This document shows, piece by piece, positions 2,085 through 33,495 of a stretch of 64,000 bases of DNA. Position numbers and translations under genes: made by a program. Within the stretch, counting starts at the first letter, position 1. Each line of letters opens with the position of its first letter. The notes under the pieces are model-generated. The model was not told the origin of the DNA. It was given only the letters and a program-made list of their open reading frames with translations, and made no database searches. Location of the stretch: the NCBI RefSeq assembly GCF_000315625.1, contig NW_005434537.1, positions 80,631 to 144,630 of the forward strand, given 5' to 3'. Origin of the DNA: Guillardia theta CCMP2712. Taxonomy: Eukaryota > Protista > Cryptophyta.

Positions 2085-2144
2085 AATGTAAAGTACTTAT
2101 GAAAGCACCAGCACACCTCAGATATGACATTTTTTTTTAAAACT

Positions 2145-8886: not shown

Positions 8887-11506
8887 ATGAAATTCCATGC
8901 ATCATCATTATTATTCATCATTTTTTCATATTCAACGGAAGCGGCATACCCCCCAGCAAATACCCCCAACTACAATGTATACGTCTGGTGCGGAGTATAT
9001 GACACCTCTACGAGATATTTTTGCGGTGGGGCAACAACATTCTCGTGGCCATGCTCTGTCTATACCTCACACTACTACAAGTATGTCTACACTGGAAATG
9101 GGAACTGGCAAGAAGGTAAATTATGCAGAGATGGTTGGGATACACCTAGCTACAATTACTTTTACACGCCAGACTTGCAAAATGAAATCTACAACATCAC
9201 TTCAGTCACGAATGATTACTTTCGACCACACAATATGGTGCGCAAGTATCTAGGCAATCTTGGATGGGACTTTTTTCATATTTCAACTTACAAAACAGGA
9301 GATGGTACATGGATCTACAGACCAGAAAACAAAATACTTGCGTCTACGGGAGAGACATATACATTCGATAGTGGATGCCTTTCGAGCATTTACATAACAC
9401 TCTATTCACCCACCGACACCTACACTGAGACTGAGACCAAGCTTGTTGGTCAGTGGTATGGATCATATCCGGCCGCCGTGGCAAACATTGCAATGTCAAA
9501 TCCGAGTACGATACCCTCTAAGTTGAGGATTGCCATCGAGGGCACATGCAAGAGTTCAATATGTTACGGTCAAACAGTGGAGATAACAAAGTACAGTTGT
9601 GGCAATGTAAGTGAGTCGTTGTGTAGCGTAATGTTCCAGAAGCCTGTAATTATTTCATATCTTTCTTACACCGGTGTCTATCTAGACTCTCCAGTGTACG
9701 GTTCAATCGAGGTTTTATACAAAAAGATCAACATTTATTACACTAACACTGTAGAATCCGGCCCTACTGCAAGCAATGTTTATTTCTATCTCTGCTTTAG
9801 TGCAGGCGACATTCGACTTAGGACGTTTGAAGTTTTCTACGAGGGGAGCAATGTACAGAATTGGTATGATGTAGCTACGAGTCAATTATGTACGTTCGGT
9901 CGGTATGCTTCTACAGATGTAAACAATCCCTGTAAGGTATGCCCCGTCGGGAAGTATAGCAACCTGGTCAGTTTTGTTCCCAGTGATCCATCCCTGTATC
10001 AAGACGCATCATTTATCTGTAAGCAATGCCCACCTTACACCACAACCGATGGTATTAACCCCGTGGCCATCTATAGTGATTGCATATGCCCCCCGAACAC
10101 GACGCGATACGACTACACAAAGTATTCGAATATAGACTACACCCTTGTTGAAGGTCTGAATTATGCTTGGTGCATCCCTGATGATTGTCCAGTCGGATAC
10201 TACCATAATATGTACACATATGCAAATAGTTTTCATTATACGGATGTCTATACTTCAGTCTATCAATACATACGATGGGCTACATACTTCCAGATGACAA
10301 ACTATATCACCCCGTCAAGAGAGTGTTTTCAATGCCCTATTGGATTCTACAGAGACAGCAGCATGAGCAAAGAGAATTGTGTGGCATGTCCTAGTTCAAC
10401 AACAACAAAGTATCGGGGTTCGACATCAATTGGGGACTGTCAGTGTGAGGTCGGTTTTTACTTTTCCGTCTCCCAAGGTATATGTGCCCCCTGTGATGCC
10501 GGCTATTACAAGGACATTGCCGGAAACGGTGCCTGTACCCCATGCCCTTTAAGTACATCCACGCTGCAACTCGGGAGCCAGAGCATCGCATCCTGTGTTT
10601 GCGACAAGGGTTATTTTGGTTACAGCTATGACCAGTGCTTCGAATGCCCTACTGGTACTTACAAGGATGTGATAGGTTTCAACGACACTTGCCAGGACTG
10701 TCCCGGGTACTCTACTACAGAGTTCACGGCATCCACCGATTTCAGCCTTTGTAAGTGTGGGCCTGGGTACACTGGGGCTGATGGCAGCGACTGCACAGCT
10801 TGCAATTCCGGTTACTTCAAGAAGCTATATGGGAATTACCCCTGCATACAATGCCTTGACACATACGTCACCGTTAACGACGCCCAGGGGAATCAAGCCT
10901 GCTTCTGCAACTATGGGTACTACCAGAACGATGCAGGTACCTGCTCGGCGTGTGCTGTCAACACTTTCAAGGACACGATATCCAATGACAATACATGTAA
11001 AATCTGCACGAACTACAGTGTGACGCTGCAGACCGGGAGTACGAGCATCAATGACTGCCTATGTGAGCCAAGGTACGGTCTGAACAACGATGGGCTGTGT
11101 GTCCCGTGCGATGGGAATACATATCAGGATACATTCAGCAGGAGCACATGTGTGGGCTGTCCTTTGTATTCAACTTCAAACGGTTTCTCCATTAAGAGCG
11201 ACTGCCATTGCATTGCAGGGTATACCGGCCCTAATGGTGGCCCTTGTTATCCATGCCCCGCAAACACTTACAAAACAAACGTTGGCAATACAAGTTGTAC
11301 AGACTGCCCATTGCATACAAACTCATCTCTGGCATCCATTGCTCTGGCCTCGTGTCAGTGTGGGGTCGGGTTCCAAGGCGCTGCTGGTGGGCTGTGTCAG
11401 GCGTGCGATCCGAATGCCTACAAGGGGGTGATTGGGGACTTTCCGTGTAAGTGCAAGCCTGGTTACACAGGGCCGGATAATGGGGTATGCACGGCATGCC
11501 CGCAAG
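8887..11506 (+). CDS. Secreted Cys-rich repeat protein (GCC2/GCC3, ephrin-receptor-like CxxCPxGxY repeats); genuine coding appears to stop at a splice donor
   Basis: Signal peptide MKFHASSLLFIIFSYSTEA; many CxCxxGY..CxxCP repeats; repeat broken at CPQ-G by AAG|GTGAGA, after which the ORF reads the antisense of the next gene to 11685. Confidence 0.8.
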
Positions 11507-11531
11507 GTGAGAGCATCTGCTCGAAGCACAC

Positions 11532-13919
11532 CTGCGTGAAGTTGAAACCCGCGCTGTCGCGTTTGCTTCCCGCCACGCCAAGGAATCGCGTCCGGCCCTT
11601 GTCCTGGATCACCAGCTCGCTCTGGCACGCCGCGTCGACCAGCATGATTGTCGTCGCCCACGCGGGTTCCTTGGGCAGCGTGTAGGAGATTGTGTTCGTC
11701 AGCAGGATGTAGAGGAGGTTTAGGTTGCTGTTCTTAAGCCGGAAGACGCGATTGATCAGTTGTATGGTGCGCTGGAGAATCACAAGCGGTGTCTCCCACA
11801 TGCAGACGGAGGGGATGGCGCCCGCCTGCAGGATCTCGGTCAGCTGCGTCTCGAGCAGCTTTAGCACGCCGTCCTTCCCTGCGTCCTCCGCTAGCACCTT
11901 CAGCGCCCGCACCAGTCCGGCCTGCACGGGGGACTCGGAGACCGACGCCTGCTCGCTGATCCGATGGATTATCAGGTTCGCCGTCGAGACCACCGAGGTA
12001 TACTCCCTGCTCTTCAGCGCGATGTCGAGCATAACGGAGAACATGCGATTTGTGCTGTGGTGCTTCCCGATAGTCCGCAGGTAGGCGTCCTTGACCTCCA
12101 TCCCGGGCTCATCGCGCTGCTCCTCCACGTTGGAGATCATGTAGAAGGCCCACCTTGCCTCCGGAGAGCGCAGGTTCTCCAGGTGATTGGCCGAGCAGCG
12201 CAGGTTCTGCATCTCCTCCCGGAAGGCGTTCGAAGCCGCCAGCCTCGGGTCGCAGATCACGCGGAAGAGCGTCGCGAAGATGCAGTTGCGGGTCACGTCA
12301 CTGACGGACAGGCCATCCCTTAGCCAGTCCTCCCCCAGGTTCAGCGAGAAGGAGAACGTCGCCGGGGGGAGCGGGGCGCACACCACATCACCCCTCTCTC
12401 CGTCCTCGTTGCGCATGACGTACACGCCACGGAAGAGCGCGTCCACCTCCGCCACGATCTTAATTTGCTTCATCTTGGTAGTGGCCTTGCATTGGTTCAT
12501 CTTTTGCTCGATGATCCCGACGTAGCGCTGCACGTCCTTGTGGACGCATCCGAGGACGACCCTGCCGAAGCCCTCGGTGGCGACAGGGACGTCGCTGCTA
12601 AGGATCTCCAGCTCCCGGCCTACCGACCAGTTGTAGAGCATCATGCAAAGGAAGGAAGGAGCCGTGATCCAGTGCATCATCGTCTTGATATCACTATCCG
12701 AGAGCATGTTCCCCTTGTTCAGGCACTTGACCATGCCGTCCAGGATCGACCACACCGACTTGCGCACCCGCGGGCCCAGAGAGTTCATAGACTCGATGAA
12801 GGCGCTGTACGGATCCACCCCGCTCATGCTCCGGAGCAGCACCGACTGCGCGACAAAGATCTTCTCCACCCCAGAGCTGTCCTGGCATCTCACCATCCGC
12901 ATCTCCACGGAGGCGTCCAGTATACCCTTGCTGATCACAAAGTTCTGGTTGTTCTCTAGAAAGTTATCCACCACCAGCGTGTAATTCAATGTGCTAGTGT
13001 TGTAAGAGGCCGACAGCATCTCTTTCATGTCATCGGGAGAGAAGTTGTCGTCGTTCTCCATCTCCTTCAGCCGTTCGCCATTCGACGCTTGTATGATCTC
13101 CTTGAGCTGATAATGAAGACCCTCGATCTCCGAGCGGTTGAGCTTCACGCGCACCGAGTCCGCCTTGCTGCTCGCGTTGTCCCCCCGGTACTTCATCAGC
13201 GTCGTGTTGGTCTGCACCGTGAAGTTGGTGAGGCAGTGGCTCTTCCCGCCCTCGCTGATGTTGTGCGCCACACGGATCACGTCCAGGAGCCCGGGGTGCA
13301 GGTCCACCCCCTCCGTAATCACGGTGAACATCATGCTCGGCCCATCCGTCTCGAAGTGAAGCTGGTGAAAGCGGTTCAGCTTGTCGTAGCACGCGAGGGG
13401 CTTTGCACAGCTTCCGCCAATGGTGAAATCAGAGGTGAACTTGTTCCCCCACAGGCAGCTCCCAAACTCGTTGTTCTGAAGACGGGATATATCCTCGATC
13501 ACGCTCAGGAACTCGATCCTGTCCCACTGGAACGGTGGGATGTCGAAGAAGCACTCCTCCACCGTCTCTTGGGTGAAGCCCTTCGGTAGCTGGTTTTCGT
13601 TGCAGACAAACTGATTCGTCTGGATGTGCAAGGCGCTGAGCTTGCTGACCTGGATTTCCCTCTCCTCTTCAACCGTGAGCTCGGGCACCTTCGTCGAATG
13701 CACCCCGTCGTCCAGGTCTGCCTTTCTCTTCGTCCCCCTGTTGCTGCTCAAAATTTTGTGATTGGGTCTCACTGGGATCGGGGCCATGGAAGCCAACCTC
13801 AGTGCCGCGCTGCTTATACTCACCCCAGTGCTCGAAGCGGCATCGTCTTCGGGAACCGAGCTCTGCGACAGCAGGGCAGCATCCCCCATGCCCTCGCGTG
13901 GCGCTGCGACGGCTAACAT
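11532..13919 (-). CDS. Large viral protein, candidate N-terminal half of a split AAA+ helicase (ORF formally extends to 11463)
   Basis: 818-aa ORF with strong GC3 bias, ending in degenerate P-loop-like GSKRDSAGFNFTQ followed by CAG|GTGTGC. Confidence 0.6.
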
Positions 13920-14103
13920 GCCCGGATTACCGATTCGGGCGGGAAATAGGCGCCGACGGGCCGTAAGCTCAAATCCAAAAAAAAGTATAAAAAAACGTTA
14001 TGGGTCGCAACTATTTTTTTTGTAGCCGGATTGGAAGGTCGATCGCATCCGGAGTATTTACCCTCCCACGCCAATATACAAAGGAAAAAAAGAGCACGAG
14101 GAA

Positions 14104-14819
14104 ATGCACCTCACGCACACGGACAACCAGCAGAGGGTGGACCTTTGGAGGGGCGGGAGGGTGACGGACATTGAGATCTTCCTCGCAGCCAAGCCCTACC
14201 TGAACCGGAGGCTCGCGATTCACTATGGCGACGGGCAGTATGTGAGAGTTTTCGACGAGCCCGAGCTGAGCATAGTGAGCCGCATGCTCGCGGCCTACTA
14301 CAACTTCGAGAGCGACCGGGTCGAAGATCCGCTTTCCGACCCCTTCTACAAATCGAGCCTGTGGAACACATGCGTCTTTGCTCAGGAGCCTGATGGCTCT
14401 ATCATGCCAGTCGATGGCTCTAGGAAGAAGAACAGACAAGAGGAGGATGACCCAGGTGAGTCACATGGGTGTATTTATTCCGAATGCGACGAACACACAC
14501 CGAAATAATAGAGACGAGCATGGAGGCAGAGAGGGAGAGCGCGACAGACCTGGTGAGGGGAAAACTGCATGACATCATGCTCCCCGCAGCCCCGCTCAAG
14601 ACGACGCAGCTGCGCGAAAAGCTCATGGACCTCAACACCGACACATCCAAGATATGCTTAGAGTACCTTGATTCTTGCCAGAACGTCCGCATGATCGATC
14701 TCATGACCATATGCCACATACTGAATAGGGAGCAGCTCTACATCCTCGAGGACGAAGAGTCCGTTGTGGAGGAGGACTTCCTGCGGTCGCTGGAGAGCAT
14801 CGTGTCTATCGGAGAGTGA
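14104..14819 (+). CDS. Spliced hypothetical protein (219 aa; intron 14456-14511)
   Basis: CAG|GTGAGT donor and TAG acceptor, both phase 1, join ORFs 14104-14508 and 14469-14819. Confidence 0.75.
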
Positions 14820-14833
14820 CCATACAGGCGCCC

Positions 14834-16117
14834 TTAAACGCTGAACACCGCCGACTGGGCGATGAGAATGATGGCCAAAAACGCCTTGGAGAACGTGCTC
14901 AGCATATTGTAGGCATACTCCCGTCGGTAACCGGAGGCCTTATTTTCCTCATCCTGGATGAAGTGGAAGTAGATCTGCGCCGCGGCGAAGGTGAAGAAAA
15001 GAACTAACTCGAAAATATAGATAAGGAGTGGAAAGACTGTGTAGCTGAAAAGGTTCTTGTTATTGAGGCAGTTGAATTTCCCCATGTAGTCTCCAAAAAG
15101 GCTGTTGCCGATGTAGAACCATATCATCACGAATAAGTACATCCCGAATAAGAACGCCAGCCCCTTCACGTAATCCATTATCTTCTTCAGGTCCTTCGGG
15201 TCCACCCCCTGTGCCCCCCGTAATGCACTCATCTCACTCCCAATCGTCCTGTAAGCAGGCCTGACCACCGGCCCCTTCTGCCACGGCATGTTAAGCCGCA
15301 CGGGGACGATAACCGCGCTCGTGCGGTCGGAACCCCACACCCCCCTGAATGCCATCTCACTCTCTTCTGTGTTGTTGTTGTATTCTCCGGGCTCGATTTT
15401 CTCATCCGGAATGCTTTCCGTATCCTTCAAGTGGCACTCCTTCGAGGCCACGTAGTCCGCCGCCTCGACGACATACCCTAGGAAGCACATCACCGACTGC
15501 GCAAGGGACACGAAGGTCAGCACCCACACGTCCGTCGTCCCAGTGTAGAGGCAGATCACGATGATCATTGAGGAGGACGAGAGCGCGTACTCGATCCAGC
15601 GATCGTAGCGGGGCAGGCCCTTCTGAAGCGCGTCTATGAATGCACCCAACATGATCGCCCTGTAGAGATCGTGATACAGATGAAGAACAGGATGAAGAAA
15701 CTGACAGGGAAGAAGTACGTCTGCGAAGATCGTGATACAGATGAAGAACAGGATGAAGAAACTGACAGGGAAGAAGTACGTCTCCACCACCCTGGGCTGG
15801 TACATCCAGGGGTCGGAAGAGCCCCACCGCACCTCGTAAGGAGGCGGAGTATTGACACCACAGCGGTCCAAATCAGGATGGCTCCCCGCCTGCGGCACCG
15901 TGATCATGCTGGCATTCCACAGGAGCGGCACCGTGCGCGTCGTCGGGGGTGTGCGGATTCGATTCATCGCCAGAAGGACGATGAAAGCGATTAGAAGGAG
16001 TCCATGAATGAACGCATTGAACAGATTGCGGTTTCTGGAGTACCGCAACCTATCATCTTCTTTTACCTCTGCGCCCTCGAAAGCAAAGATCATCTTGAAA
16101 TCATTCCCCAACCCCAT
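14834..16117 (-). CDS. Heliorhodopsin
   Basis: TM1 NAFIH, TM3 RWIEYALSSSSM..GTTD, TM4 FLGYVVE, TM7 EYAYNMLSTFSKAFL with retinal-binding Lys. Confidence 0.88.
   Translation of the reverse strand: MGLGNDFKMIFAFEGAEVKEDDRLRYSRNRNLFNAFIHGLLLIAFIVLLAMNRIRTPPTTRTVPLLWNASMITVPQAGSHPDLDRCGVNTPPPYEVRWGSSDPWMYQPRVVETYFFPVSFFILFFICITIFADVLLPCQFLHPVLHLYHDLYRAIMLGAFIDALQKGLPRYDRWIEYALSSSSMIIVICLYTGTTDVWVLTFVSLAQSVMCFLGYVVEAADYVASKECHLKDTESIPDEKIEPGEYNNNTEESEMAFRGVWGSDRTSAVIVPVRLNMPWQKGPVVRPAYRTIGSEMSALRGAQGVDPKDLKKIMDYVKGLAFLFGMYLFVMIWFYIGNSLFGDYMGKFNCLNNKNLFSYTVFPLLIYIFELVLFFTFAAAQIYFHFIQDEENKASGYRREYAYNMLSTFSKAFLAIILIAQSAVFSV
15666..15783 (+). repeat. 57-bp direct duplication (period 61) inside the heliorhodopsin gene
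   Basis: agatcgtgatacag...aagtacgtct at 15666-15722 and 15727-15783. Confidence 0.95.
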
Positions 16118-16198
16118 ATGGTCACCTGCGATCCCTTCCTTCCCCACACTTACCCAAGCCCGCGTTTTATATGAAGTGAGTAACTCACAATACCCTCC

Positions 16199-17662
16199 TC
16201 AGTCAATCTTGAGCCCCGCGCTGAAGTCCACCGTTGGGAGCACCGCGTTCATCGGCTGGGAGAAGGCGAAATGCTGGTTGCCGCTCTGGTGCCCCTGCTG
16301 CTCCAGTCGTCTCCTCCGGAAGTCGTCGAACTCCGACCCAGTAGGGTCGTAGTTGAAGACCGAGCCCACCATCATGATGAACTGGAGGGTAAGCACACTG
16401 CTGAGGAAGTAGAGGTGAGGGTACGTGTTGACGTGGCCGGAAACCCCCGGAGCGAAGAGCCTCTCCCTGTGGCCGAGCGCCGCGTCCTGGTCCCTGAACA
16501 AGAAGAGCAGCAGCGCGGTCATCTGGAGGGCGAGGTTCATTAGGATGTAAATCGGCACTGTCATCGGGTATTTTGTCAGCGGGAAGTGCTGGTACCCATA
16601 GTCGCCCAGGGCCTGAAGCAAGAAGCAGACCACCAGGGACCCGTTCATGATCCCGAACACGAGGTAGAATTGGTTCCAGATCCCATAGCGGTCACCCGTT
16701 TCGGCCATCCAGGGCGTCGACCTCACGTCACACACCACCGTGCCGTGATTGGCCGCCATCTGCAGCAGCAGTGTCATCGCCGTGAGGTGGAAGGTGAAGC
16801 TCGTGTGGACGAAGACGCGGTTGCCCCTCGTCCTCATGGTCGTCGCGGCGGAGAGGAAGAGGTAGAGCAGCACGATGATGGTCAGCAGCACCGTCCAGAG
16901 TACAAAATAAAGGTCCTGCCACGGAAACATGACCGGGAACAGCAGCTTGGCCAGCTGCTCGTTCACCGAGAGCGTATCTCTCGCCCCAATGACCAGAGAA
17001 CCGTAGAAGATCCATGTGACGGTCACCGCCAACACCGCCGTCAGCGCCCCGTTGACGACGGACTGGAAGCGGTGGTCCGTGATCTTCATCTTGTTTTCGA
17101 CGAAGGTGGCCAGCACCATGCCTACCACCATCAGCGCCGTGGCCAACGCGACCGAGCCCAGCGCCCAGAACGTCAGCGTGGGCACCGAGCCCGTGGGGTT
17201 GCTGGTGAAGCCACCCAGGGCAGTAAAGGTGGCATATGTGAAGAGCACCAAGACAGAGATCTCCACCACCCATACAAAGATCCGAGAGGGGGCGAAGGTG
17301 CGGTTGACCTTGTCCAGCGCCTCATCTAGTTTCATCTCCTCTTTCTCCATACCCAGCTCGTCATCCATGGAAGGATCATTGATGGGAGCATTCATGGGAG
17401 CATTCAGGGGGGTGTTCAAAGAAGTATTCATGGAAGCCATAAGAACTCTGTCCCGAGGGCGCCGGATCCTTGGAAACAGCGCACCGAGGTTGGACTTCAT
17501 GGGATCTTCGGACAGGGCCGTTTCCGGCTGGGGCGGGGTGTTCCGTTTTCGGGTGTACTGTAAGGGAATGCGTAGCACGCCAGGTGACGTCGGGTGCGAC
17601 CTTCGGCGGAGGACCAGTTTCCCGGGCACCACCTCCTCGCGCGGGAGCCCACCACCCTGCAT
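16199..17662 (-). CDS. Polytopic membrane protein (about 8 TM segments; start at 17662 or 17500)
   Basis: 487-aa ORF with multiple hydrophobic helices and GC3 bias. Confidence 0.75.
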   Translation of the reverse strand: MQGGGLPREEVVPGKLVLRRRSHPTSPGVLRIPLQYTRKRNTPPQPETALSEDPMKSNLGALFPRIRRPRDRVLMASMNTSLNTPLNAPMNAPINDPSMDDELGMEKEEMKLDEALDKVNRTFAPSRIFVWVVEISVLVLFTYATFTALGGFTSNPTGSVPTLTFWALGSVALATALMVVGMVLATFVENKMKITDHRFQSVVNGALTAVLAVTVTWIFYGSLVIGARDTLSVNEQLAKLLFPVMFPWQDLYFVLWTVLLTIIVLLYLFLSAATTMRTRGNRVFVHTSFTFHLTAMTLLLQMAANHGTVVCDVRSTPWMAETGDRYGIWNQFYLVFGIMNGSLVVCFLLQALGDYGYQHFPLTKYPMTVPIYILMNLALQMTALLLFLFRDQDAALGHRERLFAPGVSGHVNTYPHLYFLSSVLTLQFIMMVGSVFNYDPTGSEFDDFRRRRLEQQGHQSGNQHFAFSQPMNAVLPTVDFSAGLKID

Positions 17663-17738
17663 TTCATGTCTACACTTACTTTACTAATTTTAATAGGCAC
17701 ACACCCACGTTAGCAACACACAAGTTACACAAATCAAA

Positions 17739-18939
17739 TTATACACAGGACTTGACACACTCCTTGACTGTCTCCATCGCCCGGAACGCATACTGTTCGC
17801 ACTCGAGCGTCCAATGCAGGCGGCTCTTGAAGGACACACGGACGCACAGGATGCCCCTCCGCGTCAGGGTGCAGTTGAATGTACTGCAGTTGTCGACCCA
17901 CTTGCGCGGGAGGTCGGGGAACATGCCGGGCATGTCCTGCACGCTGAAGATGATGACGTTGTAGTGCTGCTCGGTGCGGCACATGAACCGGACGCAGTCG
18001 GGCCATCGCATGTTGAACAGGCGCTGCAGCATGCCCATCTCCGAAGTGTCCACATACCGGCCGACGTGGCAGTTGGCCCCGATCATGTTGACGGTGATGA
18101 CGGGCTCCGAGCACAGCTCCTCCACCAGCGAAGACTGCAGCGTCGCAACGACATCCCGGGTGCTCCTGAACCCCCTGAAGAGCACGCTGGGCATCCCATC
18201 CTGATGCTGCAGGTTGCCGCTCAGGTGGTAGAGGTTGGACATGCGCCCGAAGCAGTTGACGTACACATCCAGGCACGCCCTGTACTCCGGCTTGAAGACG
18301 TCTTTCGTCTTGACGTTCGTGCTGCAGGAAACACCCCGAAGGTCCATCTTCCCACTCATGTTGTGGACGCGGAAGGATGACTCCTCCTGGTGGAAGTACT
18401 GGCTCGTCATGAGATCGTAGAAAGGGCCCCAGGCGACCAGGGCCTGCGGAACGTCCCCGTTGCTGAACCCACCGGTCATATCGATGTCCAGGCCCACCGT
18501 GTAGCCATCCTTACCCTCGGAGCCCTGCACCGTCGCCTGCAACTGCAGGCCGCCCACCTCCACGCGGAAGGCCGTCGCGTCATCCCTGGCCCACACCCTC
18601 CTGTAGATCCTCATCGTCCCCCCCATGTTGAAGACGAGGACGTATTGCGCGTTCTTGCCCTGCGCATCCACCTTCCGCTCACCGTGGCTGGTCTTCAGGC
18701 GCTTCCGAAAACATGACCTCGCGGACAACCTTGTCGTATCGGAGGCAAGATCCAAGGAAGCACCGAGACGCACAGTCCCACCTCGCATCCTCCACCGTCA
18801 CAAGGGCACCGGTCGGGTTGAAGAGGGAGAAGTGGACCGGCTCGGAAACCAGGACCTCCACCACGCTCAGCTCACCGCGTGGCGCCAGGACGATGCGATG
18901 CAGCCCCACCCAGCGGAGGATCTGCCCCTGCAATTCCAT
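17739..18939 (-). CDS. Hypothetical protein with possible divergent TBP-like C-terminal region; frameshift near 18710
   Basis: MELQGQILRW... frame joins the 349-aa ORF if one T is removed from a T4 run; VNMIGANCHVG..VD and TFNCTLTRRG weakly resemble a TBP repeat. Confidence 0.5.
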
Positions 18940-19088
18940 AGGGGCGCAACGCGCGTTACCCCTCCCTGCACGCCGCCCCTCCCAGCACCCCTCCCCTACT
19001 TTTTTTTTTCCAAACCAAACCCGACCAAAAAAAAAAGCGCGGGAAAGCGGGCCCGTGAAGGGTTCCTTGGCGCCCAACCCATGGGGGG

Positions 19089-19442
19089 ATGCGGTCTTTT
19101 GTGATCTTCCTTTGCATGTGCCTTCTGTGTGCTCCATCCAGAAGCTGCCACGTCCTGGTCAAGGGCATATCGACGGTCCTGCGCGAGAACATCGTCTACA
19201 GCAAGCGTGAAATGCGCCAGTGCCTAAACCATATCATCCACTGCCCGCACTGGCACCGCAACTGCAAGGAGAACGCACACCACCAGAGGGTGCTGCTGCA
19301 GCCAGAGAGCATCGACTTCCTCGTAAAATCGGGATTGTATGCAGAGCTCATGGAGCTGGGTATCCGGGGAGGGCATCCTTCCCCGAATTGTGACAAGCCC
19401 CTTTCACACTGCAGGCCTCCCCAGGGCCCGTCCCCCGCCTAG
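19089..19442 (+). CDS. Small Cys/His-rich hypothetical protein, possible signal peptide
   Basis: 117-aa ORF with codon bias, fills an intergenic slot. Confidence 0.5.
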   Translation: MRSFVIFLCMCLLCAPSRSCHVLVKGISTVLRENIVYSKREMRQCLNHIIHCPHWHRNCKENAHHQRVLLQPESIDFLVKSGLYAELMELGIRGGHPSPNCDKPLSHCRPPQGPSPA

Positions 19443-20084
19443 GGTCCAGGCGGGCATCGCCAGGCGGTTGGCGTGGAGATTCTGACCTATGTGTAACGAC
19501 GCGTTCGTGGTCTTCTTGTCTTCCGCCTTCACGTCGGTCTTGGGAGAATGGCTGGGAGAATGATTGCCCAGAAGGAATACCATCAGCACCCCAGACACCG
19601 ATATCACCAGCAGGACCTGGAACACGACGAGCTCCACCTCCCGCATGTTCTGCCGCGTCACGAACCTCCTGCTCACCGGGTCGTACACCACCTGCACGTC
19701 GTTGTAGAAGTCGGCGTCGTGCAGCGTCTGCGAGTGGAAGTTCCCCATGACTGCCAGGAGTACCAGCCTCACCAACTCCCCGTCATGGAAGAGACTCGCG
19801 TTGCGGATGTCCTCCAAACTGCCCAAGGAGGAGAAGTTCCCGGAAATCGACAGCAGCTCCCCGTACACCGCGGAGAGCACCACCGGGTCGACGGAGCTCT
19901 GCACCGTGCTCCCGTCCCGCACCACGAAGATCCTCTGCACCTCCGACACCACCACGGGGGACAGAGTGCCGAAGAAGGACGACGGGGTTGCCTGCGATGC
20001 AGCACCGGAGTCGACAGAGAGGCAGAGCAAAAGCAGAATAAAGAAACCTTGCATCCACACCAAACAAAATACACCAAGTCGCAT
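19404..20084 (-). CDS. Type I membrane protein (signal peptide plus one TM)
   Basis: Hydrophobic N-terminus, TM LVVFQVLLVISVSGVLMVFLL. Confidence 0.7.
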   Translation of the reverse strand: MRLGVFCLVWMQGFFILLLLCLSVDSGAASQATPSSFFGTLSPVVVSEVQRIFVVRDGSTVQSSVDPVVLSAVYGELLSISGNFSSLGSLEDIRNASLFHDGELVRLVLLAVMGNFHSQTLHDADFYNDVQVVYDPVSRRFVTRQNMREVELVVFQVLLVISVSGVLMVFLLGNHSPSHSPKTDVKAEDKKTTNASLHIGQNLHANRLAMPAWTLGGGRALGRPAV

Positions 20085-20237
20085 CCTATTTGGCTTAAAT
20101 GCGGGCTGCCATATAAGATGTTATTATGGGCGTGAGGTAAAGGAAGATGGACCCACCTACTGCAGAACCAGTCTATCCACCCCAACAACTAATGATTCAC
20201 AACCATCACATTTACCATCACACGGTTGACCAGTCTC

Positions 20238-20725
20238 ATGAAAACAGCAATGTTCTCCTTCAATCCATCTTATGTTGTCTCTTCTTTGGCTGTCCATGGA
20301 ATTTGCTCCTTTGCCAAGCGGAACCCACCAGGAGACGTACAATCTCGGTGCATCAAACTCACTATAATCAATACCCGCACAATCAATAAAAAAAGAGTAT
20401 ATCCACCTACATCGTTGTCCCATTCCTTGCCCACCCCATCCCTCACCCTCCCTCCAACACGTCTTCGCAGCCTAGGCCAGAGAGGCGGGGCCCAGTGAAC
20501 CCCATCCTGCGCCACCTGCTCACCGAAGCCTCCGGGATCAAGAGCGCCAGGGTCGAGGAGCACGTCAGGCTCGTCCAGGAGCGCAAGCGACAAGAACTCC
20601 GCGACTACATCATCGTCTGCATCCAGAGGCTCGACCCCCAGAGGCCCTCCCTCCTCCCGCCTCCCGACCACCACTCCAACGTGCACGCCATCATGGAGGA
20701 GACGCTCCGGAGGTGGAAGGATTAA
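20238..20725 (+). CDS. Small probably spliced protein (intron 20397-20470)
   Basis: AGA|GTATAT donor, pyrimidine-rich intron, TTCGCAG acceptor, phase 0 joins ORFs 20226 and 20495. Confidence 0.5.
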
Positions 20726-20756
20726 TAGAGAATAAGACAAGAAGACACCACAGGAA

Positions 20757-21254
20757 ATGCTCGCCTTCGACATCGAGACCATGGGCCTCAGCATGCACCA
20801 CCACGAAATCACTGTCGCCGCCGTCTACGACCCAACCAAGGGCATCCGCCACTGCTACAACTTCTACAGGCACCGCCACGACCGCACCAGGTGGCAGCGC
20901 GAGGTGGACGATTTCCTACGCATCCTCGACGAGGCCCGCACCCTCTGCACCTTCAACGGCATCCGTTTCGACATCCCCTTCATCCAGACACAGTTCAAGG
21001 TCGACCCGGAGAGGGTGGGCCGCTGGGTGCTCAAGACCGTCGACCTCTTCCACCGCTGGAAGCTCCTCCGCGACCACACCTTCTCCCTCGACAAGCTCCT
21101 CATCGCCAACGGCCTCCCCGTCAAGACATCCAAGGGCTGCTTCGCCATCGATATGGCCAGGCAGCAGCGCTGGGACGAGCTTGAGGACTACTGCATGAAC
21201 GACACCGTCCTCACCCACCTCGTCTCGTCCAAGGAGAGGCTCGTCATACCCTGA
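20757..21254 (+). CDS. DEDD/DnaQ-like (RNase H fold) 3'-5' exonuclease
   Basis: ExoI AFDIET, ExoII TFNGIRFDIPF, SLDKL, ExoIII YCMNDT. Confidence 0.88.
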   Translation: MLAFDIETMGLSMHHHEITVAAVYDPTKGIRHCYNFYRHRHDRTRWQREVDDFLRILDEARTLCTFNGIRFDIPFIQTQFKVDPERVGRWVLKTVDLFHRWKLLRDHTFSLDKLLIANGLPVKTSKGCFAIDMARQQRWDELEDYCMNDTVLTHLVSSKERLVIP

Positions 21255-21296
21255 AGTTATTAAAATTCGAACTTTATTCTCGTGTACGTACAAGCT

Positions 21297-22547
21297 CTAC
21301 TTGGAGTACTTCTTGGAAAGCATAACCTTGTGCTGATAGTCGAACTCAGAGATCCAGTAATTGAACAACACCGTCTCAATTGCCTCTCCGGTGTTGTTCT
21401 TCTTGAACTCCTCTGTGTACACCTCCGACCCGTCGGCCCTGCGCTTGTTCCCCGGATTGGACGGTTTCCAGCCAACAGCCCTGAAGTCCACAAAATGCTG
21501 GTCCTTCTCGCTGAGCAGCACAAGCCATTCTAGCTTCTTGATCCTCTTTTCCTGCAACTTCCAATCATCGAGAGTTGGGGTGGGAGCACAAATGATTTCG
21601 ATGAACTTTCCCAGAACAGAACCATGAAACTTCATAGGCTTTAGCATTCCTTTCCAAAGCATCTTGAAGGTCTTGTGTACAAACTTGTCATCGAGCGACA
21701 CGTTGTTCAGGATACGGAAGAAATGGCACCACGTCTTTGCATCGTTCGTACTCTTGTAGAGAGCTTTCAGTCCTTTTTCCTCACCGGTCAGCTCTTTGTT
21801 CTTCACCCTGAGGACAGATGCCAGGAACATGGAGACACCAACTTTGACGTAGGTATTCTCGTAGCAGGGAACATCTGGCTTCTCCTCGTTCGATCGAAGG
21901 ATGTCCAACATACCCAGGATAACATCCCTGGCAAGCTTATTGCGCAGCTCCTTGCACTTCGCGACCTGCTCATCCGGCGGGGCATCGTTGACCTTGGAGA
22001 CATATATCCAGGCTATCTCGGTCATCTCATTCAGATTCTTGTACTTGGCCACGGTCACTTTGTTCACAGCGTCATCGTCGGTAGGATCAACACCCGTATT
22101 CTCACGGATAGAGATGATGTAGTTGCGATATGAAATTTTGCAATCTGTCTTGATCTGCTCAAACTTTTCCCAGCACATCTTTCCAAGCTGGTCAAAGTCG
22201 ATCTCATACTCTGGTTCAAACTCCACTTCCTGCCATTGCTGGAATACCGGCGACTGACCCTGCTGACCCTCTGCGGAGTAACCGTCCTCTGGAGTTGGTG
22301 TCTCTTCATCTTCTTCCAACACTTGCGTCTCCTTATCGTCTTCCTCCTCCAGAATCTGCGTCTCGTTATCCAAATCCACCATCTTCTCACTGACGGGAGA
22401 AGGACTTGGAGTCGGGGTCGGTGGTATGATGTAGCACTGCTTCTTCATTTCATAGGGTATCTTATCGACGTAATCCCTAGGATCAAATCCCTGAAGCTCG
22501 ATCTTGTAATCGTACAACGAAAGGTCTAGCAAGATATTGATAAACAT
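21297..22547 (-). CDS. Hypothetical protein with acidic N-terminal region (416 aa)
   Basis: Long ORF from MFINILL; upstream TATTTAAA. Confidence 0.7.
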   Translation of the reverse strand: MFINILLDLSLYDYKIELQGFDPRDYVDKIPYEMKKQCYIIPPTPTPSPSPVSEKMVDLDNETQILEEEDDKETQVLEEDEETPTPEDGYSAEGQQGQSPVFQQWQEVEFEPEYEIDFDQLGKMCWEKFEQIKTDCKISYRNYIISIRENTGVDPTDDDAVNKVTVAKYKNLNEMTEIAWIYVSKVNDAPPDEQVAKCKELRNKLARDVILGMLDILRSNEEKPDVPCYENTYVKVGVSMFLASVLRVKNKELTGEEKGLKALYKSTNDAKTWCHFFRILNNVSLDDKFVHKTFKMLWKGMLKPMKFHGSVLGKFIEIICAPTPTLDDWKLQEKRIKKLEWLVLLSEKDQHFVDFRAVGWKPSNPGNKRRADGSEVYTEEFKKNNTGEAIETVLFNYWISEFDYQHKVMLSKKYSK

Positions 22548-22642
22548 TTCGATGCGTGACCCGACCGCTACACCAGGCTTTAAATACACTCTCTGTCTAT
22601 TTAAAAAAAAAAAACAGAAAAAAACCAACAGAAAAAAAAATA

Positions 22643-22900
22643 ATGCCCACCCTCCCGGACACCCTCCGCGCAGCCACCCTCCTGGCCTCCTTCGGCCTCT
22701 TCGTCGTGCTCCCGCTCTACACCCCGCTGGGGATCGCCCCCGCCATCGCCGGGGCCCTGCGCAACCAGGCGGGTCTCGACGCCTCCCAGTCCGGCCTCTA
22801 CCGTAACGTCTACATCTCCACCGTGGGCCTCTTCGTCCTCTCCCTCTACGTCACCGGGTGCAAGTTCATAAACCCTTCATTGGAAACAAAAGATAATTAG
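22643..22900 (+). CDS. Small membrane protein (may have a second exon ~22901-22981)
   Basis: MPTLPDTL..., two hydrophobic segments, C-ending codon bias. Confidence 0.55.
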   Translation: MPTLPDTLRAATLLASFGLFVVLPLYTPLGIAPAIAGALRNQAGLDASQSGLYRNVYISTVGLFVLSLYVTGCKFINPSLETKDN

Positions 22901-22995
22901 ATAGCAAAGGTCAGCGAGCTCGACATCCCGCTGTACACGTCCGCGAACGTCGTCGCCTGGATAGCGACCGGGTTGAGATAAGCAGGGAAATTCAG

Positions 22996-25704
22996 GTTGT
23001 GATTCGCGGCGTTCCCGCAGAAGAATTTCTGCGGCTGGTCGAAGGTGCGTCGCCTTTCCTCCTCGCCAAGACACGGAGCCCCGACATGGTGGTGAGCGGG
23101 GCAAACTACACGGACGGGAAGAAGAAGCGCATGGGCCTGACCCTAGCACTGAAGAATGACCAGCGGGTGGACCCCGAGGACACGGTGCCGCTGTGCGAGT
23201 ATGGGAAGTTGATCTTCGTGAGCGAGGACTGCCACACGCTCATCCAGAACACGGGCCAGGCCAAGACGTTCCTTAGGGAGGCCTGCTCCAAGAAGTCGGA
23301 TGCGGACGGCGGGGCGAAGACGGGTGAGAACTACAACAAGAAGCTCATGCTTATGGAGGAGCCAAGGATCATGCTCATCGCCACAAACCGCAAGGAGACT
23401 GAGATGGGTGACGTCTTTTCGCTCGCGGCGCGGCTCAGGTTCTTCGAGTCGGCGGCGGAGGACACGTGCGTACCCCTGAGGACGAGCGAGCAGGAGAACC
23501 ACACGCGGGCCAGGCTTGGCAGCGACGCCGTCACCGCCGTGTCCACCACCTCCGCGCGCTTCTCCCTCGCCCACGACCTTGGGCACCTGCTGGCCCGGGC
23601 CGACGGAAGGGGCAAGGAGTCGGTGGACCTGAACCTGACCCGGTCGAGGCAGAACGCCCTGCTCATCGTGGTTCAGCACGCCTGCACCGCCATCGCACAG
23701 CTCTTCACGCTGAGTGGGTTCCGTCTTTACTGCAACGAGAACAATTGCGTCTCCCGCATGGTGCAGAAGGAGGTCAATGCCGTCCTTTTTAGAATTTTGG
23801 AGCCCCTCTTGAGCTCGGATGTGAACGAGGAGGACCGCTTCGTCAGGAAGCAGGAGGGGCTTATGCTCTCTCTAGCCGTTCCGATGCACATCCAGGCCAT
23901 CGTGCTGCGGAAGCTGCTGGCACAGACAATGCGGGGCGCGACACCGGACCTCGACACCCTGGTGCGCGACAGCATCATGGAGCTGATCTTCTCCGACCTC
24001 TCTCTGCACTGCATGGTGTCCGCCTACGTCTCCAACGTGACCTACGACTCTTTCATGTACGTGATGATGCGCTGCTGCATCCGCAAGCTGGAGCTGCCGA
24101 CGGGCTACACCCTCCCGCTCCTCGTCCGCCTGGTGGAGGCGGGCTCGATCGAGGGGATGGAGGGGGCGACGGCGCAGGAGGTGGCGGCGCTCACGGCGCT
24201 CAGGGTGTGGGTGCAGCACCGCATGAAGTTCCTGGTCCAGACCAAAGATTTGTACAGCACTAAGCCGAGGGAGGTGGACAGCCTTATGGATAGCTACCTA
24301 GGGATAAGGGAGCACTGGACGAGCGCGGAGGGGCGCTCCAACTTCATCGCGGACGCGGGATTCTTCGCCAGTGGCCAGATGGAGGACGCGGAGGGGGAAG
24401 AGGCGGGGAAGAACATATGGAAGACGATCCAGGGCCTGCTCTTGGGGCTGCCGGAGGTGCAGAATGCCTTCTCTAGCTTCCGCCTGCGGAGGGAGATGCT
24501 GAGCCCCGAGCTGCTTCAGATGCTCTTCGGTGCCAAGCGGCTGAACCGTGCCTGCATGGACACCATCTTCGGGAGGGAGGGCTTCAAGTTCGTCGAGCTG
24601 CTGCAGGCGCTCGGGGTGCCCGCCGAGCTCGTGCCCGCGGGGTGGAAGAAGATGAGCCTGCACTCGGCGCTCAGGGACGAGGGCAACCGCAACTCCAACA
24701 TCTTCAACCTCGTCTACGTCGGGAGGACCTCCTGCGTGCTGGCAGTCAACGTGATCGCGCTGGTGCTGCTCGCCCCCCTCTTCCAGACGGAGAACCTGAA
24801 CATCCTCCACCAGCTGCAGCAGAAGCACACCACCTGCAAGGCCGTGGAGTTTGCCATCACGCGGAAGGTGCCCAGGGCTTACTGGCCCCGCGGCGCGCTC
24901 CCCGTGCTGCAGGTCGACCACCTCGGCAAGTGGATCAGCTTCCGCCTGCCCGACGAGGAGGCGCTGCCGCCGCACCGCTGGCTCTTCCCTCGCATCCACG
25001 ACATCGAGTGGCATGGCGCGCAGCCAAGGATGAAGGGCAACGCCTCCAGCATCACGCCCTTCTTCGAGGAGGAGACAGCAATATGCGGGAACATGGTCGG
25101 CATGGCAAAGCGGATGCGGGAGGGCATGGAGCTCACCGACGACCCCATCCCCTTCTTCGACTACCTGCAGATGATCGACAACTTCCGCACCGAGGGCCCG
25201 GAGTTTTTGATGCCGCTGGATTACGACGCCTTCAACCTCTACGTCCTGGTGACCCCCGAAGGGCAGTACGTCCTCTGCAAGATCATAGACGACGGAGCAC
25301 CGCAGGTCGACATCTACCTCTTCAACGTGAACCAGGACTTCCACATGGAGAGAGAGGATGTCATCCGCATCCCGCTGTCAAACATGCACACCGCGCTCAT
25401 GCGGCTGCGCGCCTACCCCTACCCCCGAATCTTCTGCCGCCGTCTGGTGTTCGCTGGGAGGCAATACCGCGACAAGTACGAGGGCCTGGAGGGCAGGGAG
25501 TCCATCGCCTCCTTCGGCGTCGTCCTCGCCCCGCCCGGGGAGATGATCCTGGACTACGACGGAACCTACACCGTGGAGCTCTACGATCTTGAGCGCGACG
25601 AGCCCTTCACGGCCGTGAAGGGCTCATACAGAGAGAAGTCAACAACGGCATCCGGGAGCGTGGTTGGATTGGATCGTATGATCAACATGCCGATTCCAAA
25701 TTGA
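22996..25704 (+). CDS. Large viral protein, candidate C-terminal half of an AAA+ helicase lacking Walker A
   Basis: Walker-B-like KLIFVSED, sensor-1-like IMLIATN, Arg-finger-like SLAARL; begins after TTCAG acceptor, first ATG only at 23086. Confidence 0.6.
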   Translation, partial: VVIRGVPAEEFLRLVEGASPFLLAKTRSPDMVVSGANYTDGKKKRMGLTLALKNDQRVDPEDTVPLCEYGKLIFVSEDCHTLIQNTGQAKTFLREACSKKSDADGGAKTGENYNKKLMLMEEPRIMLIATNRKETEMGDVFSLAARLRFFESAAEDTCVPLRTSEQENHTRARLGSDAVTAVSTTSARFSLAHDLGHLLARADGRGKESVDLNLTRSRQNALLIVVQHACTAIAQLFTLSGFRLYCNENNCVSRMVQKEVNAVLFRILEPLLSSDVNEEDRFVRKQEGLMLSLAVPMHIQAIVLRKLLAQTMRGATPDLDTLVRDSIMELIFSDLSLHCMVSAYVSNVTYDSFMYVMMRCCIRKLELPTGYTLPLLVRLVEAGSIEGMEGATAQEVAALTALRVWVQHRMKFLVQTKDLYSTKPREVDSLMDSYLGIREHWTSAEGRSNFIADAGFFASGQMEDAEGEEAGKNIWKTIQGLLLGLPEVQNAFSSFRLRREMLSPELLQMLFGAKRLNRACMDTIFGREGFKFVELLQALGVPAELVPAGWKKMSLHSALRDEGNRNSNIFNLVYVGRTSCVLAVNVIALVLLAPLFQTENLNILHQLQQKHTTCKAVEFAITRKVPRAYWPRGALPVLQVDHLGKWISFRLPDEEALPPHRWLFPRIHDIEWHGAQPRMKGNASSITPFFEEETAICGNMVGMAKRMREGMELTDDPIPFFDYLQMIDNFRTEGPEFLMPLDYDAFNLYVLVTPEGQYVLCKIIDDGAPQVDIYLFNVNQDFHMEREDVIRIPLSNMHTALMRLRAYPYPRIFCRRLVFAGRQYRDKYEGLEGRESIASFGVVLAPPGEMILDYDGTYTVELYDLERDEPFTAVKGSYREKSTTASGSVVGLDRMINMPIPN

Positions 25705-27149
25705 TACGTGTTCATTGCATTGTTGTTGTTTGCGAGCGTGCCGACGTAAAGCTCTATTGCCGTCTGTAAGATCTCGATTGTCAGTATGCTGTTCGCCCTG
25801 TCCGCATCGTTAGCATAATAAGACTTTATCCCATGTTGTTCGTCGTATAGTTCCATAAAGGTCCTGTTTGGCATTGCATCGATCAACTCCTTGGCAGTCA
25901 TCGTGGTGGAGTAAGAGCTTGGAAGCCCGTATATGGATGTGTAGTAATCCACTTGCATGTCATAGATACAGTTCACTGTGGAAGTGGTCTGGATGCAAGG
26001 GTTTAGGCGGTCCCCTGGCTGTGCCCCATTTGGCTTGGTAAAGTAAATTGCCTGGATGTAGTCATTGTTGGTGGGGTCGTCGTAGTGCTTGACCTTGGAG
26101 GTCCAGGTCTGGGTCTGGTTGGAATAGGTAAGGCCAACAATGACCTGAAGGCTGGGCGATGCCTGCTTGAGGACGTTGAGGGCCTCGCCTTCACCGGGAA
26201 CGACGAGAGAGGTAGTGGAAGACAGCACATTGATCTGGAGTAGCTGCCTTGCGTTGACCTGTTGTGCAAAGAGGTTGGAGTTGAGTGTTGAAGTGAGCAG
26301 TTGCATCTGATCCCATGACTGTGATTGTAATGCCACCAATACATAGGTTGAGTTAGCTGCAGATCCGTCCGACTGGGACACGAGATCAAGCAATCTCCTG
26401 CGCAGTATTCCCTGTGATACGATGCTTCTCTCGAACTGTGTGAATGATCTCCAAAAGTCCAGCATCTCCTTAGTTTGGATCTTCTTGTACTCCGAGAGGC
26501 GTTGTAGCTCTTGAGCGATGGGGTTCTGTTCATTGTAGTATTGAGCTCCATTGGATTCACCCGCAAAGCTGTAGTTTGATTCATTGAATGCCTGTGGATT
26601 GTAGTAGACGACACCACTGGGGTTGGCGTTGGGGTCGTAGCTAGATAGGGTCTCAATGTATTGTAATGAATCAACCGTGATACTTCCGTTTGGTTGAGGA
26701 CTTGGTTCAGCGGATACATACACATCTTGACTGATGTTTGTGATGTTTGTAGTGAATCCGAGCCCTTGTAAGAGCTGGGTTGTGTTTTCATAGGTTGCAT
26801 TGCTCGTATTGCTTTCGAGCCATTGAAGCAATCTCCTCCCAACGGGTGTTGAGTTGAACTTGCTAATAATGGTAAGATCATCAAACAGAGCATCAGAATT
26901 TTTAAAAATAGATACGAAGGTCTGGATAACATAATCCATCGCCTTGGACGTCTGGGACTGCAGATATTGATTGACTTCGGTCTGAATGTAATCCTTGATG
27001 TCCGTCCCATTGAGCTTCGACTCTGCAACAACAAGGCTGTCTGGTGGGATGGAGATGGTTGCAACCGTAAAGTACTTCGTATCATATATGCCCGCGTGAA
27101 TGATGGAAACATAAGACAACAGGAGTATGAGTTTCAATGCGCTGTTCAT
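25581..27149 (-). CDS. Secreted S/T/N-rich protein with RRLL motifs
   Basis: Signal peptide MNSALKLILLLSYVSIIHA; GRRLLQ, RRRLLD, ARQLLQ; many NxS/T sites. Confidence 0.75.
   Translation of the reverse strand: MNSALKLILLLSYVSIIHAGIYDTKYFTVATISIPPDSLVVAESKLNGTDIKDYIQTEVNQYLQSQTSKAMDYVIQTFVSIFKNSDALFDDLTIISKFNSTPVGRRLLQWLESNTSNATYENTTQLLQGLGFTTNITNISQDVYVSAEPSPQPNGSITVDSLQYIETLSSYDPNANPSGVVYYNPQAFNESNYSFAGESNGAQYYNEQNPIAQELQRLSEYKKIQTKEMLDFWRSFTQFERSIVSQGILRRRLLDLVSQSDGSAANSTYVLVALQSQSWDQMQLLTSTLNSNLFAQQVNARQLLQINVLSSTTSLVVPGEGEALNVLKQASPSLQVIVGLTYSNQTQTWTSKVKHYDDPTNNDYIQAIYFTKPNGAQPGDRLNPCIQTTSTVNCIYDMQVDYYTSIYGLPSSYSTTMTAKELIDAMPNRTFMELYDEQHGIKSYYANDADRANSILTIEILQTAIELYVGTLANNNNAMNTYQFGIGMLIIRSNPTTLPDAVVDFSLYEPFTAVKGSSRSRS
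25600..25625. repeat. Perfect 26-bp palindrome in the overlap of two convergent genes
   Basis: gagcccttcacgg|ccgtgaagggctc. Confidence 0.97.
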
Positions 27150-30084: not shown

Positions 30085-30771
30085 ATGCAGTCATCGAAGA
30101 ACATGTTCTCTCTGCAATCGCTCTGGCAGCAGTGCATAGACGCTGTAGAATTGCTCAGGAGATCCAGCGAAGCAGAGACGGGTGTCTTGAACGAGATAAA
30201 GCTAGAGACTGAGTTAGAGAGGAGATTAAGACTGCTCCATGAGCGCGAGAGGAGGGTTGAGTCGGGTGTAAAGGACATGGACGGCTTCAAAAGGATGCAG
30301 AGATGCAGGGATGCGCTATCGACGCTGGATAGGAAGGGTTGGCCAAGGTCATTCCATCAGAAGGAGTTCCATGACGACTTTCTAAGAGCTTGTGCAAGAT
30401 TGTTTTGGAAGACGGAGCCCAAGGGACAATTCAACAGGGACCATCAAAAGATATTGGAGCTCAATGGATGGGATCATCTTGCACAGGAGATCCTTGTAAG
30501 CACGCCGAGAAGGTTTGGAAAAACAATATCTGTCAGCATGTTTGCGGCTGCTATCATATTCTCGGCCCCGTCCATTGAAGTATCCATTTATTCCACGTGT
30601 AAGCGCATCTCACAGAAGCTGTTGAACAATATCCGGAAGTTCCTCCACCTAATCTACGAAGGGATGGACGCAGAACCCTTCAAGGTGATCCGCTCCAACA
30701 TGGAGGAGATCGTTCTCAAAGGAGACAATGGAAGCCAGGACGTCAGACTCGTCAATTCTTATCCATCCAAG
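30085..30771 (+). CDS. Terminase ATPase subunit, N-terminal (Walker A) exon
   Basis: SFHQ adenine-binding motif, ILVSTPRRFGKT Walker A (cf. herpes VPRRHGKT); ends NSYPSK at AAG|GTAATG; no Walker B or nuclease (ORF stop at 30822). Confidence 0.85.
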
Positions 30772-30823
30772 GTAATGCAGTGTGGTAGTTTAGGTTTTAT
30801 TTACACACTAACAAAATGCTAAC

Positions 30824-32923: not shown

Positions 32924-33039
32924 TATCTTATGAAATTATTCAATTTGTCCAATAATCTCGATAGTCTTACAATCTCCTTGTTCTTTTTCATGTACGAACA
33001 GGGCCATTCTGAAATAGGTTCATTGGTAAAAGCAAAATC

Positions 33040-33471
33040 CTATTCAGAGTCCGAGCACCCATCAAAATCTTTTCTTTTTTTGCAAAGCATTGCGTCTTTA
33101 TCAGTCTCTAGAGAAGGGGATGATCTCTTTATCTCTATGATAAGCCTGCCAGGACCATCATCAAACTCAGTGTAATAATCGATGTACAGGCCATTCCCAA
33201 TCTCCACTCGATCGTCAACAACGAAATCTCTGGACTTCAACCATCGCGTGGCCATGACTTTCATGCTCAGGTATTCCCTATTCATCATGGTAAAGGATGG
33301 CTGTATACCCAACAGAGGCTCGATCCGTTCGTCGCGCGAAAGGCTTATCGGTATGATATGGTCCTTGATTACTGATTCGATGGTATCAAAATCATCCATG
33401 GCAATATTAAGACTCATCCTGAAGATTGTCTCGCCACGTGGTTTATTCATTTCTATCAAAAACACTTGCAA
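33040..33471 (-). CDS. Hypothetical protein (likely ATG at 33450)
   Basis: ORF conserved in both copies; TATTAAA 26 nt upstream of the ATG. Confidence 0.65.
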   Translation of the reverse strand: MQVFLIEMNKPRGETIFRMSLNIAMDDFDTIESVIKDHIIPISLSRDERIEPLLGIQPSFTMMNREYLSMKVMATRWLKSRDFVVDDRVEIGNGLYIDYYTEFDDGPGRLIIEIKRSSPSLETDKDAMLCKKRKDFDGCSDSE

Positions 33472-33495
33472 ATCTTTTAATACAACGCATGTCCA

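What the first reader, a model, noticed from the sequence alone, without database searches (positions are those of the whole stretch)
11532..25704. Two halves of one putative AAA+ helicase on opposite strands with phase-matched splice sites: candidate trans-spliced or inversion-split viral gene
Seen: the minus-strand gene runs 796 codons to ...SKRDSAGFNFTQ and then CAG|GTGTGC (phase 0, exon end 11532). 11.5 kb away, the plus-strand gene begins after TTCAG| at 22996 (phase 0) and has Walker-B-like (LIFVSED), sensor-1-like (IMLIATN) and Arg-finger-like (SLAARL) motifs but no Walker A. Both share the same GC3-rich codon usage. Joining gives DSAGFNFTQ-VVIRGVPAEEFLRLVEGASPFLL, which resembles the P-loop-to-helix pattern (SAGKS...V...P.E....L..ASP) of MCM-like/viral AAA+ helicases, in a ~1700-aa protein. 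Inference: because the halves point away from each other, cis-splicing is impossible. Expression would need trans-splicing, inversion of 11532-22995 (both ends share CAGGT), or two separate polypeptides (ATG at 23086). Caveats: the P-loop lacks the canonical Lys, and I see no clear base-pairing between the intron halves.
Basis: partly seen in the sequence, partly recalled or inferred. Interest (0 to 1): 0.9.

Follow-up and report, generated by a model that had tools for sequence, protein, structure and literature searches.

The report
Inversion-broken gene in endogenous algal virus
The two opposite-strand pieces are halves of one normally unbroken viral gene that a DNA rearrangement has split in this one copy of a virus, likely a decaying mirusvirus lodged in an alga's genome, so this is likely ordinary erosion rather than trans-splicing.

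Summary
Unsplit relatives of 1,702–1,772 aa exist, one as a single ORF on a contig. They join at a DNA breakpoint, 11510/23048 (±2 nt), which matches the three closest relatives 55 of 55 residues with no gap. The proposed splice (11532/22996) drops 8 residues and adds 18 read antisense from a neighbouring gene. Read-derived DNA contigs carry all three window junctions without mismatch, and also an intact version joined at the breakpoint (one sample). The window copy is broken a second time at 25614 and lacks the last ~100 residues; a 26-bp palindrome sits there. Best reading: a 14-kb piece of one endogenous mirusvirus-like element, captured in shuffled order into another, probably by error-prone end joining, in a cryptophyte genome. 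The MCM-like helicase label fits by motif order only; profile and fold tests were inconclusive. RNA data were too sparse to test splicing. Interest is low.

The parts
11510..13919 (-). 5' half of the ~1,750-aa viral gene (about residues 1-798 of P0003); the ORF runs on into antisense of the neighbouring gene and stops at 11463
23048..25614 (+). middle/3' part of the same gene (about residues 799-1653 of P0003); the last ~100 residues are not found in the window
11510..23047 (.). segment inverted relative to the 3' half; its genes lie in the same order and strand as in the intact gene model P0011
11504..11512 (.). junction J1 (ephrin-receptor-like repeat gene | 5' half); the hexamer AAGGTG at 11504-11509 recurs at J2
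   Evidence: bridged with 0 differences by X3 record 16 and X4 record 23
23042..23050 (.). junction J2 (truncated neighbouring gene | 3' half)
   Evidence: bridged with 0 differences by X3 record 2 and X4 record 10, 22978-23112
25600..25625 (.). junction J3: 26-bp perfect palindrome centred on a native GGCC; homology to the intact gene ends at 25614, so the last 11 nt are likely a templated inverted insertion
   Evidence: bridged by X1 record 8 (0 differences) and X4 record 28 (0 differences, 1 gap)
22894..23048 (-). 3' end (49 codons and stop, GC3 0.80) of a gene whose 5' part is missing here; possibly the major capsid protein C-terminus (recalled, untested).
   Evidence: intact continuation as loose end behind 23048; no relative found in viral contigs
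8887..11509 (+). ephrin-receptor-like repeat gene of the low-GC3 flanking element, apparently cut mid-repeat at J1
   Evidence: Pfam PF07699 E 5e-48; repeat ends C-T-A-C-P-Q-G at the junction
25626..27149 (-). low-GC3 (0.58) gene of the flanking element running into J3
14834..16117 (-). heliorhodopsin-domain gene inside the inverted segment (a core mirusvirus function per PMC12768974)
   Evidence: Pfam PF18761 E 3e-12

Best explanation
A normally unsplit gene of about 1,750 codons is broken at the DNA level in this copy, by an inversion-type junction at 11510/23048 and a truncation at 25614, likely because a 14-kb piece of one endogenous mirusvirus-like element was captured in shuffled order into a second one. 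Shown: unsplit relatives, the breakpoint positions, the three junctions in read-derived contigs, an intact version in the same sample, and the missing C-terminal ~100 residues. Inferred: the repair route, error-prone end joining with snap-back synthesis (26-bp palindrome at J3; no bases lost or gained at the internal break); a recent date (no stops or frameshifts in either half; 98.6% identity to the intact gene model); and that the locus gives no full-length product. The intact protein is probably a large nucleic-acid-dependent ATPase with a divergent MCM/AAA+-like core and a non-canonical P-loop (about 50%; motif order only).
For: Six unsplit proteins of 1,702-1,756 aa, plus P0017, P0018 and P0020. 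L001 holds a 52-53% relative as one 1,752-codon ORF. A joint 11512->23050 on opposite strands appears in 4 of 4 DNA runs; it carries synonymous differences from the window, so it comes from another copy. J1, J2 and J3 are each bridged by contigs in 2 runs with no substituted letters. The intact model P0011 covers the genes at 20084-14200 and both halves on one strand. GC3 is 0.65-0.96 inside 11510-25614 and 0.50-0.65 in the flanking ORFs measured. The longest perfect palindrome of the window lies exactly on J3; 1 of 100 shuffles reached 26 bp anywhere. Of the listed differences between copies, 49 of 59 are at third codon positions (only rows shown).
Against: All four DNA runs are one sample and may be the sample the window came from, so they test the assembly but are not independent biology. 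The order of events (one-step capture, or capture then inversion) cannot be fixed, because no intact copy of the flanking genes was found. The repair mechanism rests on one clear palindrome and a 6-bp shared hexamer. The mirusvirus label rests on heliorhodopsin, literature on the host genus and recalled motifs; the terminase-like and capsid-like assignments got no database support.
Confidence: 0.89

Rival explanations
1. Trans-splicing: separate transcripts are joined at CAG|GT (11532) and AG|G (22996), as for mirusvirus terminase genes.
For: Both sites exist and are phase 0; the join is open. Trans-splicing across opposite strands is documented for mirusvirus terminases (PMC12768974).
Against: The product would replace 8 aligned residues of the helix after the P-loop-like motif with 18 antisense-derived ones and still lack ~100 C-terminal residues. 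GT is impossible at that place in 5 of 8 relatives. Only one 8-nt complementary stretch (E 3.0) lies between the supposed intron halves. Near-identical copies are contiguous in DNA.
Confidence: 0.03
2. Assembly artefact: near-identical viral copies were mis-joined by the assembler.
For: Several copies at about 96-99% identity exist; the window has an N gap and large repeats.
Against: Each junction is present in independently built contigs of two runs, with no substitutions, 31 or more letters on both sides, and depth like the flanks.
Confidence: 0.03
3. A reversible invertible switch turns the gene on and off.
For: Re-inversion restores the frame with no base lost; a joined form exists in the same sample.
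Against: No inverted repeat longer than 6 bp around the two ends. The reciprocal joint is not among those listed. The joined form has other variant letters. The gene would still be truncated at 25614 and the neighbour at 23048.
Confidence: 0.02
4. The halves are kept as separate, host-co-opted polypeptides (818-aa N half; C half from ATG 23086, or cis-spliced behind the small membrane gene as in gene model P0010), for example as a decoy against the virus.
For: Both ORFs are open; automatic gene models exist.
Against: The break falls inside the putative ATPase core, and 98.6% identity to the intact model leaves no sign of separate selection.
Confidence: 0.03

Closest known systems
Eroded endogenous giant-virus elements in protist genomes (Euglena GEVEs, PMC12455990; mirusvirus clade E03 in cryptophyte assemblies, PMC10827195)
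   Same: Multiple near-identical copies, duplications, retrotransposons nearby, truncation and rearrangement of viral genes.
   Different: Here the junctions are mapped to the base, and one element seems to be captured inside another of different codon bias.
Trans-spliced terminase of Okeanovirales/Styxvirales mirusviruses and alloherpesviruses (PMC12768974)
   Same: Two halves of an ATPase-like gene far apart, on opposite strands.
   Different: There the halves end at canonical splice sites and RNA reads span the join. Here the homology boundary is not at the splice-like sites, close relatives are unsplit, and the copy is also truncated.
Synthesis-dependent microhomology-mediated end joining, snap-back class (PMC5728401)
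   Same: A repair junction at which inserted letters create a longer inverted repeat, as at J3.
   Different: The passages read describe a plasmid repair assay; nothing here tests the enzyme or pathway in cryptophytes.
MCM/Cch-like AAA+ helicases; mirusvirus orthogroup OG0000022 (PMC12768974, supplementary file 10)
   Same: By eye the motif order matches the MCM core printed (G-L-T segment, Walker B-like, REA/HEA, sensor-1 N, Arg finger). OG0000022 (469 genomes) has weak structure hits to Cch (E 5e-4) and to chain 4 of a human replisome entry (E 7e-5).
   Different: This protein is ~1,750 aa against about 1,030-1,100 aa, lacks the GK[ST] lysine in all 8 rows aligned, and gave no significant profile match to 11 MCMs. 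Membership in OG0000022 was not testable.

Membership tests
trans-spliced viral gene | Homology boundary coincides with GT/AG splice sites | tested here: not met
   boundary at 11510/23048 ±2, 22 and 52 nt from the proposed sites
trans-spliced viral gene | Split conserved among close relatives | tested here: not met
   relatives at 92-99% identity are unsplit; L001 is one ORF
trans-spliced viral gene | RNA reads across the joint | tested here: inconclusive
   X5 gave 3 reads in 764 Mb read, X6 none
site-specific invertible switch | Inverted recombination sites at both ends | tested here: not met
   longest inverted match within ±60 nt is 6 bp
MCM/AAA+ helicase | Canonical Walker A GxxxxGK[ST] | tested here: not met
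   K-x-D-S-[AT]-G-F-N in all 8 rows
MCM/AAA+ helicase | Walker B, sensor-1 and Arg finger in order | tested here: inconclusive
   ED, A-x-N and R conserved in order, but hhalign against 11 MCMs scored 19.4 against a shuffled maximum of 19.6 and was not significant
MCM/AAA+ helicase | ASCE fold | tested here: inconclusive
   models at pLDDT 40.5 and 35.8; fold searches uninformative
Mirusviricota (endogenous) | HK97-type major capsid protein of mirusvirus type | not testable with these tools
   only a 49-aa tail, resemblance recalled; no hit
Mirusviricota (endogenous) | Core genes such as heliorhodopsin and terminase | tested here: inconclusive
   heliorhodopsin met; ORF 30085-30822 has a Walker A motif but no family hit as terminase
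Mirusviricota (endogenous) | Embedded in a eukaryotic genome with host mobile elements | tested here: met
   retrotransposon ORFs at 45.5-54.7 kb; matching database proteins are named as cryptophyte gene models

The most novel reading that the evidence does not exclude
A trans-spliced gene caught at birth: a fresh inversion happened to leave usable phase-0 GT and AG sites beside both breaks, and the host spliceosome rejoins the halves into a slightly altered protein. That would show how the split, trans-spliced terminases of mirusviruses and alloherpesviruses can arise in one step.
Probability: 0.03. Interest if true: 0.8.

Novelty: new member of a known kind. Interest (0 to 1): 0.2.

Why it matters
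As it stands it is a base-resolved example of how integrated mirusvirus-like DNA is scrambled in a protist genome, with a junction signature pointing to error-prone end joining, and a warning that chance GT/AG pairs beside breakpoints can mimic trans-splicing in a group where trans-splicing is real. The more durable lead is the intact protein: a conserved, unannotated ~1,750-aa family whose named members come from cryptophyte genomes and transcriptomes. If it proves to be an MCM-like helicase, it bears on how nuclear mirusviruses lacking a DNA polymerase start replication.

Tried and rejected
No RNA holder listed. The RNA lay was uninformative: X5 gave 3 reads from about 6% of the run, X6 none, and only 22640-24300 was laid. 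No whole genome is held. Viral-contig scans found no relative of either half, the alignment, the tail peptide, the terminase-like ORF or the 25627-27149 gene; searches used wrong frames, so L002 is disregarded. Pfam, PHROGs, NCBIfam and PDB-sequence searches gave nothing credible for the protein. ESM Atlas hits were all under 0.9. Both AlphaFold models were too poor to use, and the four fold searches mean nothing either way. Profile comparison with MCMs was not significant (one search timed out). tblastn of the core against phages gave one E=8 hit. One search covered only 3,102-5,000-aa proteins and is uninformative; one search added no new sequences. Earlier findings: none returned.
Full report
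Observation. The window is viral DNA in a eukaryotic setting: a heliorhodopsin gene, an ephrin-receptor-like repeat gene, an exonuclease, and retrotransposon ORFs at 45.5-54.7 kb. Database proteins matching the window's ORFs are named Guillardia theta gene models, and PMC10827195 lists that species among assemblies with mirusvirus capsid genes of clade E03 (passages; section 7).

One gene, normally unsplit. A search for longer proteins returned 6 hits among 7,978 candidates scored, all 1,702-1,756 aa. Cluster and representative searches added P0009, P0011, P0017, P0018 and P0020 (the 1.84-billion library gave 8 hits at E up to 0.001). P0003 is 94% identical to the N half and 96% to the C half, in consecutive parts. 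L001 encodes a 52-53% relative as one 1,752-codon ORF. P0020 is a transcript-derived protein of another cryptophyte, which says nothing about splicing.

The join is not at the splice-like sites. Relatives read ...T-Q-V-C-F-E-Q-M-L-S-S-P-F..., so the N half continues 8 codons past the 'donor' and the C half starts 18 codons after the 'acceptor'. Joined in a script at 11510/23048, the frame is open and 55 of 55 junction residues match P0011, P0003 and P0017 without gaps. Of 4,000 breakpoint pairs, 3 give an exact match, all the same junction ±2 nt. I recall that tail as resembling mirusvirus capsid C-termini; this is untested (one search found no relative). In 5 of 8 aligned relatives the residue after the 'donor' is not Val, so no GT can stand there.

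The junctions are real DNA. In read-derived contigs of four runs (one sample, one study, possibly the window's source), J1 is bridged in X3 and X4, J2 in X3 and X4, and J3 in X1 and X4, with no substituted letters (one gap in the X4 record over J3) and at depth like the flanks (both tables were cut, 248 and 12 rows not shown). All 4 runs also hold a joint 11512->23050 on opposite strands, and a continuation past 25614. The joint carries different synonymous letters, so it belongs to other copies. Gene model P0011 shows such a copy with the neighbouring genes and both halves on one strand. The window copy lacks the last ~100 residues altogether (best tblastn E 0.095).

How it likely happened. 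The stretch 11510-25614 has GC3 0.65-0.96 in 10 ORFs or pieces; the 9 flanking ORFs measured have 0.50-0.65. It looks like a 14-kb piece of one viral element set into another, with genes cut at all three junctions. The internal break loses no base. J3 carries a 26-bp perfect palindrome, the longest in the window, reached by 1 of 100 shuffles anywhere. Homology to the intact gene ends at 25614, so about 11 nt are likely a templated inverted copy. PMC5728401 (passages) describes snap-back end joining in which inserted letters create longer inverted repeats. The hexamer AAGGTG stands at both J1 and J2, but no inverted repeat over 6 bp supports a recombinase switch. The repair route is inference. 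Open frames, 98.6% identity to P0011 and 49 of 59 listed differences at third positions suggest selection on the gene before a recent break. Erosion of this kind is described for endogenous giant viruses (PMC12455990, passages).

Trans-splicing. It is real in mirusviruses, for the terminase, sometimes across strands and with RNA support (PMC12768974; passages, section 10). Here it fails the boundary and conservation tests. The RNA test was inconclusive, as too few reads were available. It is not strictly excluded for this copy (about 3%).

What the intact protein is. Conserved motifs follow the order of an MCM-type AAA+ core by eye, but the P-loop lysine is absent in all 8 rows. Profile comparison with 11 MCMs did not beat shuffles, and both models were too poor to test the fold. 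In supplementary file 10 of PMC12768974, mirusvirus orthogroup OG0000022 (469 genomes) has weak structural hits to Cch and to a human replisome chain. That is a lead only. Three large supplementary tables and one picture-only PDF could not be read and may bear on it. Paper searches showed no title on this locus or family; apart from the four papers named, I saw listings only. I put the MCM-like ATPase reading at about 50%.

Verdict. A rearranged, doubly broken copy of an unsplit viral gene in a decaying endogenous element (0.89). A new member of a known kind; interest 0.2.

Noticed in passing
window 30085-30822 (+): ORF with a Walker A motif (TPRRFGKT), resembling a terminase ATPase half (recalled; no family hit). 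A canonical-looking donor AAG|GTAATG follows at about 30772, and a motif scan found no Walker B/nuclease half in the window. This is the better candidate for the known mirusvirus terminase trans-splicing.
   Followed up: partly
window 1-3537 and 32179-37961: Direct duplication: 1-2144 matches 32179-34331 at 99.4% and 2543-3537 matches 36967-37961 at 100%, with a 397-N gap between; the viral block looks tandemly repeated or collapsed, ending in AT-rich ~171-bp repeats.
   Followed up: no
window 37961-38855, 41618-43471, 58655-59748: Arrays of a ~323-bp unit with an internal imperfect palindrome, interleaved with retrotransposons and with direct repeats 43471-43961/58164-58654 and 49403-49585/55304-55486.
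   Followed up: no
window 60262-63921 (-): A third gene block with very high GC3 (0.91-0.98) and no credible family hit; possibly another viral fragment.
   Followed up: no
window 15666-15783: 57-bp direct duplication in the heliorhodopsin-domain gene, absent from other copies (joint 15667->15743 in 4 of 4 runs); this gene is also more diverged from other copies than its neighbours.
   Followed up: no
window 22643-22900 (+): Small hydrophobic ORF (GC3 0.96) after a poly-A tract; an automatic gene model (P0010) splices it to the C half.
   Followed up: partly
runs X1-X4 on window 12059-12100, 23078-23183, 24799-24832: Loose ends of more distant paralogues show that the sample holds further, diverged copies of this gene; P0019 and P0023 are such fragments.
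   Followed up: no
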